Assembly: GCF_044353605.1 (NCBI RefSeq) | Contig: NZ_JBILBO010000008.1 | Location: forward strand, 3,706-67,705 | Direction of reading: 5' to 3' | Source: Arenimonas sp. | Lineage (GTDB): Bacteria > Pseudomonadota > Gammaproteobacteria > Xanthomonadales > Xanthomonadaceae | Length of the DNA stretch: 64,000 bases | Shown here: positions 1-4,173 of the stretch, piece by piece | How positions within the stretch are numbered: position 1 is the stretch's first letter | Layout of the letters: every line of letters begins with the position of its first letter | Program-made: the position numbers and the translations under genes | Notes under the pieces: model-generated | The model's database searches: none | What the model was told of the DNA's origin: nothing | The model's input: only the letters and a program-made list of their open reading frames with translations

Positions 1-1080
1 CCGCCAATAAGACTGCACCCGCAGACCTTCGGCCAGTGCGCGGTAGTCGATGTATTGCCGGTGCCATTCACGGCGTTTGGCCACACTGTTGATGCCGATG
101 CCGGCCAGGAAGAACAGCAGGAAAAGGTAAATCATCACATCTTTGGCCATGATGTCCGAGTACATGATGAAGGCGTAACCCATCAGTGCAGCGAGGACGT
201 AAGTGGCGAGAAGGATGCGGCTAACGCGTCGCCGGTATGTCGTTGCGAGCCAATCGGCACCGCCGAAATAACATCCGATCGGACAATCGGTATCCCCCAG
301 GCTTCCGGCTTTTACGATTTCTTCGCGGTACTGTTTGCAATCGTGCTGGTATTCGATTTGCCGACGGAACATGGTGTTGAAGGAGTCCGGCATACTTTTG
401 GAGGGCTGTGCATCATCGCCCGAGATCAGCCAGCGGCATTTCTCGTTGATGTCGGTCTCACTGCTCTGGCGTCCGGCCGGAATGTGATACACCAGTGACT
501 CTTCGTCCAGTCCGAGATTGCCAATGGCGGTCTGCCGGCGGTCGATGGTGCCAGGCAGTGTTCCGTGGAGGTGGTATTCGACGACTTGGGCGGTGCCTCC
601 GAAGTGTCCGTTTTCCGATCCATCCCACAATGCCAGCAGGATATGACAGTGGCTTGAGGTGAACATGCCGGCAAGCGCATATTGTCTGTTGCGCGCGTAG
701 CCGCCATGGCGTATGTCGTCAGGACTCCGGAGGTCCTGAAACGCGAGTTCGAGGCAGGCGCTCAGCGAAAGCTGTCTGTCGAATTCGATCAGTTCGGCTG
801 GGTCGTCGAAATCGCTGCGGTAGAGCGTTGCCGGAACCGGCAGCGCGGCAATCACCCTGATGCCCATTTCGAGCGCGATGCCGGCTACCAGTTGATCGGC
901 TCCTGCCGCCAACGGGCACAAGACCGTCAGCGGCAACTCCGGATAATCCTGCCGCAGCTGGTCGAATAGTCCATGGACCTGCCTTTTCAGGCGCGGTAAT
1001 TCGGTCTCGCGCAGATTCCTATGCCCGGTCACGCCAATGACAAGGCCCGCAGTCTCCATGGGTTGATGTGTGTCAGCCAT
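1..1080 (-). CDS. SLOG-domain protein fused to SLATT-like transmembrane domain (3'-truncated by window edge)
   Basis: Manual translation from ATG at 1080 gives 360 codons with no stop: MADTHQPMETAGLVIGVTGHR...LAAGADQL...LLALWDG...GGTAQVV (SLOG motifs), then two hydrophobic helices and WHRQYIDYRALAEGLRVQ (SLATT-like). Absent from the ORF track. An alternative start is at 1059. Confidence 0.8.
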   Translation of the reverse strand, partial: MADTHQPMETAGLVIGVTGHRNLRETELPRLKRQVHGLFDQLRQDYPELPLTVLCPLAAGADQLVAGIALEMGIRVIAALPVPATLYRSDFDDPAELIEFDRQLSLSACLELAFQDLRSPDDIRHGGYARNRQYALAGMFTSSHCHILLALWDGSENGHFGGTAQVVEYHLHGTLPGTIDRRQTAIGNLGLDEESLVYHIPAGRQSSETDINEKCRWLISGDDAQPSKSMPDSFNTMFRRQIEYQHDCKQYREEIVKAGSLGDTDCPIGCYFGGADWLATTYRRRVSRILLATYVLAALMGYAFIMYSDIMAKDVMIYLFLLFFLAGIGINSVAKRREWHRQYIDYRALAEGLRVQSYWR

Positions 1081-1089
1081 GATCGGATA

Positions 1090-1500
1090 TTATTGGTTCA
1101 CAATCCGGGGATCGCATTTCAGAGTCTCCCCGGTTTGTTTGTTCCGAAGGTTTATTTGGTAATAGACATCCGCCGGGCCGGTGTTGGCATTGAAAATATT
1201 GAGCACGTTGCCGTTTCCGCCGGCCGTTTCTCTGATCTGATCCGAGCCCGGACCCGTGAATGTGGTCGGTTCGAAAACCATGTCATCACCATATAAAAGC
1301 TCGATCTGGATTTTCTTGCCACCTGTTTTCTGCATGACCTCGACGTTGCCGTAGCCATCCGTGCCGCCGCTGAACTGGCAGCCATTGATGTTGAGCTCGA
1401 CTTTGAAGTCCGGCGCATTGCCATTCTGTGCTGAGGTGCTGCTCGACACGGCAGCCATCGCCAAAGCGAGGACAAGGATTTGTGTTTGACTGATTCGCAT
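1090..1500 (-). CDS. Small secreted beta-rich protein ending CDPRIVNQ (DP-EP-like)
   Basis: ATG at 1500 follows an AAGGA RBS. Signal peptide MRISQTQILVLALAMAAVSSSTSA. Paralog of 1590-1928. The track start at 1584 is probably too long. Confidence 0.75.
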   Translation of the reverse strand: MRISQTQILVLALAMAAVSSSTSAQNGNAPDFKVELNINGCQFSGGTDGYGNVEVMQKTGGKKIQIELLYGDDMVFEPTTFTGPGSDQIRETAGGNGNVLNIFNANTGPADVYYQINLRNKQTGETLKCDPRIVNQ

Positions 1501-1589
1501 GTGTTGTCCTTGAGGTTTTGAGCAGGTTCTCAGGTCTGGGACGGCAGGGAATGAGCGGATTGCCAAAAAGCAGTCCGCAGTCATCCGAT

Positions 1590-1928
1590 TTATTTATTCA
1601 CGACCCGCGGATCGCAGAGTACATCGGGGCCTCCGTTCGAGTCGCCGACGATGACCGTATATTTGACATCGGCCGGTGTTCGGCAATTGTCGTCGATATC
1701 GACCCGGCGCTCATTGCCCTTGATGTCGAAGCTGAAATTTTCCAGGCCACTGCCTTGGAATTGGACATCCTTGATGAAGTAGTTCGATGCCGCATTCAGC
1801 GAGACGTGGATTTTCGACGGCCCCTGGCCGACCGAATTTTCGACATTGCCGTTGCCTTTGTTGCCGCCGGAATACTGGTAGCCGCCGTTCTGTACGGATA
1901 ATGAAACCTGCTGATCTGAGTTAGGCAT
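1590..1928 (-). CDS. Small beta-rich protein ending CDPRVVNK (DP-EP-like), no signal peptide
   Basis: AGGAG RBS; starts 1 nt after the upstream stop. Shares SGG..G.GNVE, PADV.Y and CDPR.VN with 1090-1500. Confidence 0.8.
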   Translation of the reverse strand: MPNSDQQVSLSVQNGGYQYSGGNKGNGNVENSVGQGPSKIHVSLNAASNYFIKDVQFQGSGLENFSFDIKGNERRVDIDDNCRTPADVKYTVIVGDSNGGPDVLCDPRVVNK

Positions 1929-1929
1929 C

Positions 1930-4041
1930 TTAGTTCTCCTTAGAGGGGGTGGTGGGTGAAGCCGATGAAACCAAAAAACCGGACTCGGTAGGATCCGGAA
2001 CGAAACGGGGGTCTTTGTAGCCGGCCTTAGACAATTCGGATTCGATTTCTTCCGCTTTTGCGGCTTGGCTGAGGCTGATTGCGATCAATCGTCGGATGGG
2101 ATTGAAATCAAAAATCCGGATGGTCTGGCTGTCCAGAAGCTTGGCTGTCTCGCGCCAGGTATTTTCCGCCTGGCTAGCCTGGCCATCGGCCATCTGCGCA
2201 GAACCAAGAATCAAGACCGATTTCGCCAATTCCGCGACAAGCAGGGGGGATTGGTCGGATTCTTTAAGCAGAGCGGTAACCAGGTTGCGGCTCGTTTCCG
2301 CAGAGATGATGGCTTCTTTGGTTCTACCGTTCTGGAGTATACGCAATGCTTTTTCACGATGCATTCCGGAAAGTATGATTTTATTTTTGGTATTTGAAGG
2401 GTCCTTCGAAATAAGTGTGTCTACTCGGCCAATCAAACCATCTAAATCAGCATCATGGCTGTTCGACCAGCCGCCACGGGGAGTCATCGACAGTCGAAGT
2501 AATTCGGCCTTGTACAGCACCTGAAGCCAATCGGCATTATTCGGATCCTTTTCAGTCAACATTGAAAGAATTCGCAGCGACTCCGCATTGAGGCGTGCGG
2601 CGGAGTCGACATCGCCGATATAGAGTTTTGCGTCGGTCTGGAAGGTCATGTTGGACGCAAAAGTAAAGGTTGCCCGCGCATTCTCATCTTTCAAGTAAAT
2701 CGGACGAAGCAGCTTGGCAATCTCGGTGAAGGCCTCATCGCTGCCGGAAAGATCACCAAGATCCATTTTGCTCGAGCCAATCCAGGACCAGGCTTCCGCA
2801 AGGCTGTAGGCAAGCTCGATGTCATCCGGGGTCTTGGCCAGTTCCTCGGCATTGATGTCGCGGCTGAGGATGAAGTTGTCGAGAGCGACGCGGGTGTTTC
2901 CGCGCGCGCGCGCCATACTGCCGAGATTGGAATACGCATAGGAAAGCTCCATGTTGTAGATCGAGTTTCCTGGGTCTCGTTCGAGGAGCTCACGGCTGTA
3001 CTGCATGTAATTCTTGAAAGCGTTTTCTGCGAGCTTCAGATCGCCACGCTCCCATGCGACATATCCGACCCAGAATTCAGCTTGTCCGAGCTCAAACAGA
3101 TTGTCATTGTTTTTAGGGTCGGCTTTGTAAAGGGCCTGCATCTGCTTGAGCGACTCTTCGAAGGCGATCAGTGCGGCCTTCAGGTCGCCTTTCGATTTGC
3201 GCACTTCGCCGATCTGATGCAGGGCCTTGCCGCGCTCGCGCAGTTCCTTGGGGGTGCCGCGGTCACCGAGCGTAGCGAAGTAATTCATGGCCTGATCGCC
3301 GATGGAGTCCAGGATTTCGAGTTTTCCGATGGGTTCAAGCCGTTCGCGCAGGTCGCCGAGCATGAAACCGATCAGGTTCTCGGCCTGGCTGCGGCGGATC
3401 TCTGACTCACGCTTGGCATTCAAGGCATAGACCGCCAGGCCGATAGTCAGCATCGCGATTAAGACCGCGCCGGCCGCCAGAATCGACCAGAACCGCGCCT
3501 GTCGCTGCGCGTCGCGGCGCTTGAGATCATCAACGCCGACATTCAGCAGGCCTGCCGCGATTTTGAGCATCGCATTGCGTTTGCCGTCACCGCTTGGAGT
3601 GGCATCGGCGGCCAAGGGCTCATGGATGATGTTGCCGTTTTCATCCTGTAGGATTGCGGCCGGAAAGGCACAGTGCGGGGATCGCGGATCCGGACTGCCG
3701 GCCGCCAGAAGACAAAAAATGCGGTCGCCACAGCCGGAGGCCCGGAAGCGGCGAATTTCCTCGTTGACCCAGTGCGAGGCACGTGCCGCCGGAGTACAGA
3801 TGACAATCAGCGCATCCGAGTCGTCCATGGCCTTGCGAATCGACTCGGACAGATCGCCGCCGGAGGCGAGTTCGTCACGGTCGCGGAAAATCGGGAAAAG
3901 TCGGGCGGGGAGATTCTGCTGGCTTTGACGCAGTGATTTCGGCAAGCGGTAGCCTTCCAGTGCACGCTGAAGCCAGCGCGCCCAAGCCTCGTCGCTGTGG
4001 CTGTAACTGATGAATGCCCTGTAATGCCGTTGAACCGCCAT
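1930..4041 (-). CDS. TIR domain - transmembrane helix - TPR-like repeat protein
   Basis: N-terminal AFISYSHSD, IFRDRDEL and SHWVNEEI (TIR motifs with catalytic-type Glu); hydrophobic FWSILAAGAVLIAMLTIGLAVYAL; long helical repeat C-terminus. Confidence 0.85.
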   Translation of the reverse strand: MAVQRHYRAFISYSHSDEAWARWLQRALEGYRLPKSLRQSQQNLPARLFPIFRDRDELASGGDLSESIRKAMDDSDALIVICTPAARASHWVNEEIRRFRASGCGDRIFCLLAAGSPDPRSPHCAFPAAILQDENGNIIHEPLAADATPSGDGKRNAMLKIAAGLLNVGVDDLKRRDAQRQARFWSILAAGAVLIAMLTIGLAVYALNAKRESEIRRSQAENLIGFMLGDLRERLEPIGKLEILDSIGDQAMNYFATLGDRGTPKELRERGKALHQIGEVRKSKGDLKAALIAFEESLKQMQALYKADPKNNDNLFELGQAEFWVGYVAWERGDLKLAENAFKNYMQYSRELLERDPGNSIYNMELSYAYSNLGSMARARGNTRVALDNFILSRDINAEELAKTPDDIELAYSLAEAWSWIGSSKMDLGDLSGSDEAFTEIAKLLRPIYLKDENARATFTFASNMTFQTDAKLYIGDVDSAARLNAESLRILSMLTEKDPNNADWLQVLYKAELLRLSMTPRGGWSNSHDADLDGLIGRVDTLISKDPSNTKNKIILSGMHREKALRILQNGRTKEAIISAETSRNLVTALLKESDQSPLLVAELAKSVLILGSAQMADGQASQAENTWRETAKLLDSQTIRIFDFNPIRRLIAISLSQAAKAEEIESELSKAGYKDPRFVPDPTESGFLVSSASPTTPSKEN

Positions 4042-4136: not shown

Positions 4137-4164
4137 TTGACAGACCGTTTTTTGTTAGTAGTAT
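4137..4164 (+). promoter_or_regulatory. Probable sigma70 promoter of lexA
   Basis: TTGACA (4137-4142), 16-nt spacer, TAGTAT (4159-4164). Confidence 0.6.
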
Positions 4165-4173
4165 TACTACTAA
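4155..4173. promoter_or_regulatory. LexA operator (Xanthomonas-type SOS box)
   Basis: Palindrome TTAGTAG-TATTA-CTACTAA overlapping the -10 element and the lexA start codon. Confidence 0.85.

What the first reader, a model, noticed from the sequence alone, without database searches (positions are those of the whole stretch)
1..1080. Long ORF absent from the ORF track: SLOG domain fused to a SLATT-like pore domain
Seen: 360 uninterrupted codons on the minus strand with IGVTGHR (nt 1038-1018), LAAGADQL, LALWDG and GGTAQVV, then two hydrophobic helices and WHRQYIDYRALAEGLRVQ. The plus-strand ORFs listed at 55-969 are its antisense shadows. Inference: a nucleotide-gated membrane effector. There is no Sir2 domain ahead of the SLOG, so an effector output would have to come from the membrane domain or the unseen C-terminus.
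Basis: partly seen in the sequence, partly recalled or inferred. Interest (0 to 1): 0.68.

Follow-up and report, generated by a model that had tools for sequence, protein, structure and literature searches.

The report
SLOG-sensor membrane effector beside TIR gene
The ORF is a real, intact gene for a membrane protein with a nucleotide-sensing SLOG domain and four pore-type helices, encoded next to a TIR signalling enzyme, so it is most likely the effector of a Thoeris-like immune system of a class that has been predicted but never shown to work.

Summary
Window 1-1080 (-) holds the first 360 codons of an intact 563-aa gene that runs off the window edge. That is why an ORF list without open ends misses it.

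AlphaFold2 and Foldseek place residues 13-230 in the SLOG fold. The best hit is YpsA (E 7e-7), followed by DprA, ShosA, ThsA-SLOG and TRPM2. The YpsA-clade GxD motif is conserved.

It is a second 2TM module, giving SLATT_3/DUF4231-like plus SLATT_1-like, four TM helices in all.

The gene ends a tightly packed operon with a TIR-TM-TPR protein (catalytic Glu conserved) and two small paralogs. A TIR-TPR homolog lies beside the gene in 56 of 80 Lysobacterales loci. It occurs in 39 of 43 genomes that carry the gene, against 14 of 158 that lack it. Distant members in other phyla sit next to other TIR architectures.

The best reading is a TIR-made NAD-derived signal that gates a SLOG-4TM membrane effector. 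This architecture matches the putative 'SLOG and 4TM' Thoeris configuration of a 2025 preprint, whose two tested examples gave no defence in E. coli. Ligand, pore activity and trigger are all untested.

It is a new member of a predicted kind, of moderate interest.

The parts
1..1080 (-). Codons 1-360 of the 563-aa SLOG-4TM gene. Codons 361-563 lie outside the window at G000:C24:3094-3705 (L002 3094-3705) and hold the linker (aa 363-425), the SLATT_1-like second 2TM module (aa 427-550; TM3 448-466, TM4 about 475-495) and C-terminal helices.
391..1044 (-). SLOG domain, YpsA-like (aa 13-230). Conserved motifs: GVTGHR loop after strand 1 (nt 1018-1035), GxD motif G60-A-D62 (nt 895-903), WDG (aa 152-154), GGT (aa 161-163).
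   Evidence: AF2 pLDDT 84.5. Foldseek: YpsA 2nx2 E 6.9e-7, then DprA, ShosA, ThsA SLOG, TRPM2/5. Conservation.
1..282 (-). First SLATT-like module (DUF4231/SLATT_3-like, aa 267-362, cut at aa 360 by the window edge). TM1 is aa 289-307 (nt 160-216) and TM2 is aa 315-333 (nt 82-138). They are followed by the highly conserved helix WHRQYIDYRALAEGLRVQ.
1090..1584 (-). Small beta-rich protein ending in CDPRIVNQ. The probable true start is M28 (nt 1503), which gives a signal peptide MRISQTQILVLALAMAAVSSSTSAQ. It is a paralog of the next gene.
   Evidence: The signal peptide was read by eye and from the start of the L004/L005 orthologs.
1590..1928 (-). Small beta-rich protein (112 aa) ending in CDPRVVNK, with no signal peptide. 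Homologs sit next to TIR-TPR genes in other Lysobacterales loci.
1930..4041 (-). TIR-TM-TPR protein (703 aa). TIR is about aa 7-125 (nt 3667-4023), with the S.WV..E motif and Glu95. One hydrophobic helix is aa 186-204 (nt 3430-3486). A TPR-like solenoid spans about aa 220-682 (nt 1996-3384). It is the presumed signal generator and sensor.
   Evidence: Pfam TIR_2 6e-14, ThsB_TIR 4e-8, TPR. PADLOC and NCBIfam ThsB-like hits. Conservation of Glu95. TM.

Best explanation
The gene encodes the effector of a Thoeris-like TIR signalling module.

Shown:
- The protein has a cytoplasmic YpsA-type SLOG domain.
- It has two tandem SLATT-like 2TM hairpins, four TM helices in all. All soluble parts are predicted on the cytoplasmic side.
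- It is co-operonic and co-inherited with a TIR protein whose catalytic Glu is conserved.

Inferred:
- On a trigger sensed through its TM-TPR part, the TIR domain converts NAD+ into an ADP-ribose-derived signal.
- The SLOG pocket (GVTGHR loop, GxD, WDG and GGT motifs) binds that signal.
- Binding drives rearrangement or oligomerisation of the SLATT helices, which makes the inner membrane leaky.
- The leak stops growth or kills the infected cell, as in abortive infection.

The SLOG lacks a conserved Glu in the position of the LOG-type GGxGTxxE motif (by eye, from memory of the motif), so a sensor is more likely than a hydrolase.
For: - Fold: the SLOG model has pLDDT 84.5. Foldseek top hits are all SLOG proteins: YpsA E 6.9e-7 (TM 0.61 on the target), DprA, ShosA, TM1055, MoCo carrier, ThsA SLOG with 3'cADPR, and TRPM2/5. 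The full-length model gives the same set.
- Motif: the GxD signature of the YpsA clade (PMC6459960) is present as G60-x-D62 and is at least 90% conserved in 79 diverse members.
- SLATT: in this protein DUF4231 scores 3e-4, SLATT_3 6e-3 and SLATT_1 2e-4 in Pfam, and SLATT_1 1e-7 in NCBIfam. Of 79 members, 34, 22 and 18 hit DUF4231, SLATT_1 and SLATT_3, and 5 hit the YAcAr SLOG family.
- Topology: there are four hydrophobic helices, and all four long flanks are rich in basic residues.
- Operon: the four minus-strand genes are separated by gaps of 1-9 nt as called.
- Local linkage: a TIR-TPR homolog lies within 7 kb in 56 of 80 loci, in varied order and orientation, while the flanking genes are not conserved.
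- Genome-level linkage: 39 of 43 genomes with the gene have a TIR-headed homolog, against 14 of 158 without it (odds ratio 100, p 3e-25, not corrected for phylogeny).
- Catalytic residue: TIR Glu95 is at least 90% conserved.
- Distant members: some sit beside other TIR architectures. These are a ThsB-like TIR on a MobL contig, a TIR-TPR in Woeseiaceae, a short TIR, a TIR-DUF4190, and a TIR-DUF5050 at a prophage end.
- Distribution: patchy, 43 of 201 genomes of the family.
- Literature: SLATT was predicted to be a nucleotide-responsive pore-forming effector (PMC7159879). TIR plus SLATT is Thoeris type VII and uses cADPR, and 'SLOG and 4TM' is listed as a putative Thoeris effector (bioRxiv 10.64898/2025.12.03.692087).
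Against: - No Pfam or NCBIfam model reaches its curated cut-off on this protein.
- No experiment exists for the family. The two 'SLOG and 4TM' systems tested in the preprint gave no defence in E. coli.
- In the window the operon lies between housekeeping genes (mutS-cinA-amylase and lexA-recA-recX-alaS), not in a defence island.
- About 30% of the Lysobacterales loci and 4 of 9 distant loci have no TIR within 5-7 kb.
- In about 13 genomes the TIR-headed match and the SLOG-4TM gene are unlinked or on different contigs (two of these are fragmented assemblies). Several of those matches cover only the TIR and the start of the tail. This is unusual for a mobile defence cassette.
- No matches were found in PLSDB plasmids or in cultured phage genomes.
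- The fourth TM helix is only weakly hydrophobic.
- Ligand, oligomer state and pore activity are unknown.
Confidence: 0.6

Rival explanations
1. It is a physiological ligand-gated channel rather than a suicide effector. The TIR-TM-TPR protein reports an envelope or periplasmic cue. The SLOG-4TM protein translates the NAD-derived messenger into a reversible ion flux or membrane-potential change. This would be analogous to ADPR gating of TRPM2 through its SLOG-type MHR1/2 domain.
For: TRPM2/4/5/8 N-terminal domains appear among the fold matches. The operon sits among housekeeping genes. The gene occurs in 21% of family genomes, one copy per genome in all but two. TIR and effector co-occur even when unlinked. 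The TM-TPR tail is shared with wHTH-nSTAND1-TM-TPR regulators. One small partner carries a signal peptide.
Against: SLATT modules are known only from conflict systems: CBASS effectors and Thoeris VII. The distribution is patchy and the position non-syntenic. Some members lie on a prophage end or a relaxase contig. TIR partners with swapped sensor domains are typical of immune systems.
Confidence: 0.2
2. The SLOG domain is an enzyme, not a sensor. It would be a membrane-anchored nucleotide or NAD-derivative N-glycosidase that makes, matures or degrades the signal, with the 4TM part serving only as an anchor.
For: Some SLOG clades, such as LOG, are hydrolases, and SLOG domains are proposed to process ADPr derivatives (PMC9503650). 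Invariant or nearly invariant polar residues H20, R21, D62 and D153 line the predicted pocket region.
Against: No conserved Glu was seen in the position of the LOG GGxGTxxE motif (GGTAxVV in the consensus; judged by eye). The closest structures are the non-catalytic YpsA, DprA and ThsA SLOG. The most conserved parts of the protein are the juxtamembrane helices of the two SLATT modules, which a passive anchor would not need.
Confidence: 0.1
3. The TIR neighbour is coincidental or acts as an independent NAD-depleting effector. The SLOG-4TM protein would respond to some other signal, for example a SMODS/CD-NTase product, or work alone.
For: About 30% of Lysobacterales loci and 4 of 9 distant loci lack a nearby TIR. 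SLATT domains also pair with SMODS cyclases by definition of the family name. That definition is from my own knowledge of Burroughs et al. 2015; the paper is not held.
Against: The co-occurrence is strong (odds ratio 100). TIR adjacency recurs in four other lineages with unrelated TIR architectures. No cyclase was seen in any neighbourhood that was inspected.
Confidence: 0.05

Closest known systems
Putative Thoeris configuration 'SLOG and 4TM' / '4TM SLOG' (bioRxiv 10.64898/2025.12.03.692087, Tables S1-S2)
   Same: A TIR gene lies next to a protein with a SLOG domain and four TM helices, and that protein is predicted to be a signal-activated effector.
   Different: I could not verify sequence relatedness to the preprint's two examples (Streptomyces sp. 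GKU 895, Ca. Nitrospira nitrosa); some searches were uninformative. From the domain excerpts I saw, the TIRs in the preprint look like short proteins, though I did not see their full lengths. Here the TIR is a 703-aa TIR-TM-TPR protein and the operon adds two small paralogs. The preprint's examples showed no defence in E. coli.
Thoeris type VII (ThsB TIR + SLATT effector ThsH, signal canonical cADPR)
   Same: TIR plus a SLATT-type membrane effector. The presumed output is membrane disruption on binding an ADPR-derived signal.
   Different: ThsH is annotated only as SLATT, and its ligand pocket is modelled between SLATT protomers. Here a separate SLOG domain is fused in front, and there are two different SLATT-like modules in one chain.
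Thoeris type I ThsA (SIR2-SLOG) and type III ThsD (SLOG effector)
   Same: A SLOG domain acts as receiver of a TIR-made cADPR isomer. The ThsA SLOG bound to 3'cADPR (7uxs) is among the fold matches.
   Different: There is no SIR2 or other enzymatic output domain. The SLOG is closer to YpsA than to ThsA (E 7e-7 against 6e-3). The output is a 4TM membrane module.
TRPM2-type channels (SLOG-like MHR1/2 domain + ion channel, gated by ADPR)
   Same: A SLOG-fold nucleotide sensor is fused to a membrane-permeation module. TRPM2/4/5/8 appear in the fold search.
   Different: This is an analogy only. The membrane part here is 2x2TM SLATT, not a 6TM tetrameric cation channel, and the Foldseek matches are weak (E 0.01-0.06).
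B. subtilis YpsA (PDB 2nx2), SLOG superfamily
   Same: It is the best structural match, and the GxD/E substrate-binding signature is shared.
   Different: YpsA is a soluble 178-aa cell-division regulator with no membrane part and no TIR partner.

Membership tests
SLOG superfamily, YpsA-like clade | Rossmannoid three-layer alpha/beta fold resembling solved SLOG proteins | tested here: met
   The AF2 domain model has pLDDT 84.5 and pTM 0.84. Foldseek PDB gives YpsA 2nx2 at E 6.9e-7, probability 1.0, TM 0.61 on the target. The next hits are DprA, ShosA, TM1055, MoCo carrier, ThsA SLOG and LOG.
SLOG superfamily, YpsA-like clade | Glycine-rich loop after strand 1 and the GxD/E motif after strand 2 (PMC6459960) | tested here: met
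   GVTGHR (G16, G19, H20, R21) and G60-A-D62 are invariant or at least 90% conserved in 23, 26 and 79-sequence alignments.
SLOG superfamily, YpsA-like clade | Curated sequence model above its cut-off | tested here: not met
   The window protein has no SLOG-family Pfam or NCBIfam hit, even at E<=10. Only 5 of 79 relatives hit PF10686 YAcAr, best E 2e-5. The PDB sequence-profile search found nothing. Membership therefore rests on fold and motifs.
SLOG superfamily, YpsA-like clade | Binds a nucleotide or ADPR-derived ligand | not testable with these tools
   Needs ITC or DSF with the purified domain.
SLATT (SMODS and SLOG-associating 2TM effector) | Two-TM hairpin with flanking conserved cytoplasmic helices | tested here: met
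   There are two such modules. The first has TM 289-307 and 315-333 plus helix 339-362. The second has TM 448-466 and about 475-495 plus helices 498-554. The cytoplasmic flanks are basic.
SLATT (SMODS and SLOG-associating 2TM effector) | Match to a SLATT-clan profile above the curated cut-off | tested here: inconclusive
   The window protein is below cut-off: SLATT_1 21.7 against 26.3 bits, DUF4231 21.7-23.1 against 24.7, SLATT_3 17.2 against 26.3, NCBIfam SLATT_1 31.9 against 41. Relatives carry precomputed PF14015, PF18181 or PF18184. Of 79 members, 34, 22 and 18 hit at E<=0.01.
SLATT (SMODS and SLOG-associating 2TM effector) | Forms a membrane-permeabilising assembly on ligand binding | not testable with these tools
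   No multimer prediction or assay was possible.
Thoeris-type TIR signalling system | A TIR protein with the catalytic Glu, encoded with the effector, with conserved linkage | tested here: met
   TIR_2 6e-14 and ThsB_TIR 4e-8. Glu95 is at least 90% conserved in 44 sequences. Linkage: 56 of 80 loci; 39 of 43 against 14 of 158 genomes; other phyla.
Thoeris-type TIR signalling system | Defence-island or mobile-element context | tested here: inconclusive
   In the window the flanks are mutS/cinA/amylase and lexA/recA/recX/alaS, and GC equals the genome average. Elsewhere the gene is found at a prophage end with two serine recombinases, on a MobL relaxase contig, and near a NACHT/STAND gene. There is nothing in plasmids or phages.
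Thoeris-type TIR signalling system | Protects against phage; TIR makes a signal on infection | not testable with these tools
   For the matching 'SLOG and 4TM' class, two systems tested in E. coli gave no defence.
Thoeris type I ThsA | SIR2 NADase domain fused to the SLOG | tested here: not met
   The protein starts 12 residues before SLOG strand 1. No SIR2 hit was found.

The most novel reading that the evidence does not exclude
The Lysobacterales version may be an outside-in TIR pathway. The TPR solenoid of the TIR-TM-TPR protein would face the periplasm. It would be helped by the small CDPxIxN proteins, one of them exported in this lineage, and would sense an envelope event such as phage adsorption, injection or cell-wall damage. 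That would switch on the cytoplasmic TIR, whose NAD-derived messenger gates the SLOG-4TM protein. This would make it a bacterial receptor, second messenger and channel cascade with a Toll-like layout, not just another cytoplasmic Thoeris.
Probability: 0.2. Interest if true: 0.75.

Novelty: new member of a known kind. Interest (0 to 1): 0.5.

Why it matters
SLOG-4TM proteins form a very large, cross-phylum family (6,266 clusters at 50% identity), and every source name seen was either 'hypothetical protein' or a bare domain label (DUF4231, SLATT). They are the presumed effectors of a Thoeris-like class that has been catalogued but never shown to work. The two heterologous tests in E. coli were negative.

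The Lysobacterales operons offer a well-conserved, compact version from bacteria with culturable relatives (Lysobacter, Luteimonas, Dyella, Rhodanobacter). In these the ligand, the pore activity and the trigger could be worked out in a native host.

If the TPR part is periplasmic, the system would also test whether bacterial TIR signalling can be driven from outside the cytoplasm. It would also give a prokaryotic parallel to ADPR gating of TRPM2.

Tried and rejected
- A profile search of PDB sequences with the family alignment found nothing relevant.
- Pfam, NCBIfam and PADLOC gave no SLOG hit on the window protein. They gave only sub-threshold SLATT hits and a weak CBASS '2TM effector' hit at E 6e-3.
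- tblastn against PLSDB plasmids and INPHARED phages found no match.
- I tried to tie the family by sequence to the preprint's 'SLOG and 4TM' examples. A relative of the Nitrospira TIR was found, but its contig did not hold an effector. BLAST of the two published TIR excerpts against TIRs next to our family gave only generic TIR similarity.
- Burroughs et al. 2015 is not held, so statements about it rest on citations in PMC7159879 and PMC9503650 and on my own knowledge.
The paralogs I checked have wHTH-nSTAND1 heads instead.
Neither protein gave a significant NCBIfam match at E<=1.
- hhalign between the two 2TM modules is only weakly suggestive of an internal duplication (E 1.6e-3, probability 16%).
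- hhalign between the two clusters of small proteins is also weak (E 7e-4, probability 26%).
Full report
**Observation.** The minus strand of window 1-1080 is an open 360-codon frame that starts at ATG 1080.

The frame is open at the window edge. ORF lists that omit open-ended frames would therefore not show it.

The window is G000:C24:3706-67705. In the upstream 3.7 kb (locus L002) the frame continues for 203 codons to a stop, giving a 563-aa protein, P0002. Homologs are the same length and align from end to end, down to the C-terminal HAEWTLMHRERPL.

GC by codon position (0.63/0.43/0.69) looks like recA and alaS of the same window. The plus-strand ORFs show the mirrored pattern of antisense shadows.

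**Anatomy.** An AlphaFold2 model built on 23 homologs has mean pLDDT 79 and pTM 0.81.
- Residues 13-230 form a beta-alpha-beta Rossmann-like domain.
- A long helix (232-262) leads to a first helical hairpin. Its TM helices are 289-307 and 315-333, followed by helix 339-362.
- A helical linker (363-425) leads to a second hairpin. Its TM helices are 448-466 and about 475-495, followed by helices 498-554.
- All four long flanks are rich in Arg and Lys, and the two hairpin loops are short. The SLOG domain, the linker and the C-terminus are therefore predicted to be cytoplasmic.

**SLOG test.** No Pfam or NCBIfam SLOG model hits the window protein, and a PDB sequence-profile search finds nothing.

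The fold evidence is clear. The full model's high-probability Foldseek hits are DprA, ShosA and MoCo carrier, with weaker TRPM matches. A separate model of residues 1-260 (pLDDT 84.5) gives B. subtilis YpsA (2nx2) at E 6.9e-7 with TM 0.61. It then gives DprA, ShosA, TM1055, MoCo carrier, the ThsA SLOG bound to 3'cADPR, LOG and TRPM2/5. Almost all high-probability hits are SLOG-superfamily proteins.

The YpsA-clade signature is GxD/E, proposed to bind substrate (PMC6459960). It is present as G60-A-D62 and is at least 90% conserved in 79 members sharing only about 30% identity. So are G16, G19, H20, R21, W152-D153-G154 and G162-T163. Five of those 79 members hit the YAcAr SLOG family directly, best E 2e-5. 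The loop reads GGTAxVV and, judged by eye against my memory of the LOG GGxGTxxE motif, has no conserved Glu in that position. This favours a sensor over a hydrolase.

**SLATT test.** The window protein gives sub-threshold hits:
- DUF4231 and SLATT_3 on residues 272-357.
- SLATT_1 on residues 427-550 (Pfam 2e-4, NCBIfam 1e-7).
- A weak PADLOC CBASS '2TM effector' hit.

Across 79 diverse members, 34 hit DUF4231, 22 hit SLATT_1 and 18 hit SLATT_3. Several database homologs carry these Pfam assignments precomputed.

The 'unseen C-terminus' is therefore a second SLATT-like module, not an enzyme. The two modules align only weakly to each other (hhalign E 1.6e-3). The most conserved stretches of the whole protein are the juxtamembrane helices that follow each hairpin.

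**Context.** The gene is the last of four minus-strand genes separated by 1-9 nt as called:
- A 703-aa TIR-TM-TPR protein. It scores TIR_2 6e-14 and ThsB_TIR 4e-8, and has one hydrophobic helix at 186-204 and TPR repeats.
- A 112-aa protein.
- Its paralog, called at 164 aa. Both end in CDPR(V/I)VN. The second has a signal peptide if it starts at M28.
- The SLOG-4TM gene.

The operon lies between mutS-cinA-amylase and lexA-recA-recX-alaS. Those names are read from the translations and gene order, not from family searches. Its GC is not unusual.

**Linkage in the Lysobacterales.**
- In 80 loci that encode a homolog, a TIR-TPR homolog lies within 7 kb in 56. Order and orientation vary, while the housekeeping flanks are shared only with the closest relatives.
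- In a sample of 201 genomes of the same family the gene is patchy, present in 43 genomes and 23 of 64 genera.
- A TIR-headed homolog is present in 39 of those 43 genomes, against 14 of the other 158. The odds ratio is 100 and Fisher p is 3e-25, not corrected for phylogeny.
- In about 26 genomes the two genes are adjacent. In about 13 they are unlinked or on different contigs, two of those in fragmented assemblies.
- The TIR motif S.WV..E, with Glu95, is at least 90% conserved in 44 TIR-TPR proteins.
- Small proteins next to the TIR-TPR gene fall into two clusters of 15 and 17 that share a C-terminal DPxIxN ending.

**Beyond the order.** The family is very large: 6,266 clusters at 50% identity reach E<=1e-3 and 903 reach E<=1e-30. 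It extends to Woeseiaceae, Acidobacteria and Bacteroidetes, and nearly every source calls it 'hypothetical protein'.

Of nine distant loci inspected, five have a TIR gene next door, each time with a different architecture:
- A 259-aa ThsB-like TIR on a contig with a MobL relaxase.
- A 740-aa TIR-TPR.
- A 111-aa TIR.
- A TIR-DUF4190.
- A TIR-DUF5050 at the end of an IMG/VR viral contig, beside two serine recombinases.

The other four have no TIR within 5-6 kb. One effector family paired with TIR proteins that swap their sensor parts is the pattern seen in Thoeris systems.

**Mechanism.** Shown: the domain architecture, the predicted topology, the operon structure, the linkage to TIR, and conservation of the TIR catalytic Glu and the SLOG pocket motifs.

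Inferred: the TIR makes an ADPR-derived messenger from NAD+ when its TM-TPR part is triggered. The SLOG domain binds that messenger. The two SLATT hairpins then rearrange or oligomerise and breach the inner membrane.

The inference rests on precedent:
- SLATT was predicted to be a nucleotide-responsive pore-forming effector (PMC7159879; PMC9503650).
- The ThsA SLOG binds 3'cADPR (7uxs appears).
- Thoeris type VII pairs a TIR with a SLATT effector that responds to canonical cADPR (bioRxiv 10.64898/2025.12.03.692087).

I put about 0.6 on this reading. The rivals are:
- A reversible, physiological ligand-gated channel (0.2). It is favoured by the housekeeping context, the unlinked but co-inherited pairs and the TRPM analogy.
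- A membrane-anchored SLOG enzyme (0.1).
- A coincidental TIR neighbour (0.05).

**Comparison with what is known.** The closest description is the preprint's putative Thoeris configuration 'SLOG and 4TM' / '4TM SLOG' (Tables S1-S2). That is a TIR gene beside a SLOG protein with four TM helices. Two examples were tested in E. coli and neither gave defence.

I could not confirm by sequence that those effectors belong to this family, so the identity rests on architecture. Differences from other types:
- Type VII: here there is an added SLOG domain and two SLATT-like modules in one chain.
- Types I and III: here the output is a membrane module, not an enzyme.

The SLOG-SLATT association itself is the origin of the SLATT name (Pfam descriptions; Burroughs et al. 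2015, from my own knowledge, paper not held). The gene is therefore a new member of a predicted, uncharacterised kind.

What I did not find described is the Lysobacterales flavour: a TIR-TM-TPR partner and small CDPxIxN proteins. The TM-TPR tail is 28% identical over 536 residues (E 4e-52) to the tail of wHTH-nSTAND1-TM-TPR proteins in the same family. It thus looks like a portable sensor module.

**Limits.**
- No multimer model was possible.
- No ligand, pore or phage data exist.
- The family has no match in PLSDB plasmids or cultured phages.
- Earlier notes from this scan describe similar TIR plus SLOG-4TM clusters in other genomes. I treated them as leads only. Independently of them, I saw RyR-domain proteins beside two such clusters.

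Noticed in passing
window 4155-4173: A perfect palindromic LexA-box-like site, TTAGTAGTATTACTACTAA. It overlaps the -10 of a TTGACA-16-TAGTAT promoter (4137-4164). It ends at the ATG (4173) of a gene whose N-terminus reads like LexA (by eye, not searched). It lies about 115 bp upstream of, and divergent from, the TIR-TPR start at 4041. It probably reflects lexA autoregulation. Whether it also affects the TIR operon is unknown.
   Followed up: partly
window 1090-1928: Two tandem small paralogs end in CDPR(I/V)VN(Q/K). Only the downstream one has a signal peptide. Small proteins beside TIR-TPR genes in other loci form two clusters (15 and 17 members) that share a C-terminal DPxIxN ending, with weak profile similarity (hhalign E 7e-4). 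No Pfam or NCBIfam family matches.
   Followed up: partly
L098 2442-5870 (-) and L099 1074-4448 (+): The TM-TPR tail of the TIR-TPR protein (aa 167-681) is homologous (28% identity, E 4e-52) to the tail of proteins of about 1,130 aa. Those proteins have a Trans_reg_C winged-helix domain, an nSTAND1 NTPase and a hydrophobic helix at the equivalent place. The tail is therefore a shared sensor module on different signalling heads.
   Followed up: partly
L083 1-918 (+); L095 3578-3880 (+): RyR-domain (PF02026) proteins are encoded next to the TIR and SLOG-4TM pair in two unrelated loci. One of them is on an IMG/VR viral contig beside two large serine recombinases.
   Followed up: no
G095:C22:36775-46415 (not fetched): One genome of the same family carries two SLOG-4TM genes in tandem, flanked by two TIR-TPR genes. 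This is an apparent duplication of the whole module.
   Followed up: no
L092 6001-8511 and 4320-5906: Woeseiaceae members of the family (about 836 aa) carry an extra N-terminal region of about 265 aa with no Pfam hit. A 528-aa gene without any Pfam hit lies between the TIR-TPR gene and the effector.
   Followed up: no
G070:C15:5640-7724, G095:C22:36775-38862, G119:C62:5111-7195, G154:C8:217362-219458 (not fetched): Four TIR-TPR homologs are reported with one in-frame TGA inside the match. This could be a pseudogene, a sequencing error or read-through at the gene end. It was not examined.
   Followed up: no
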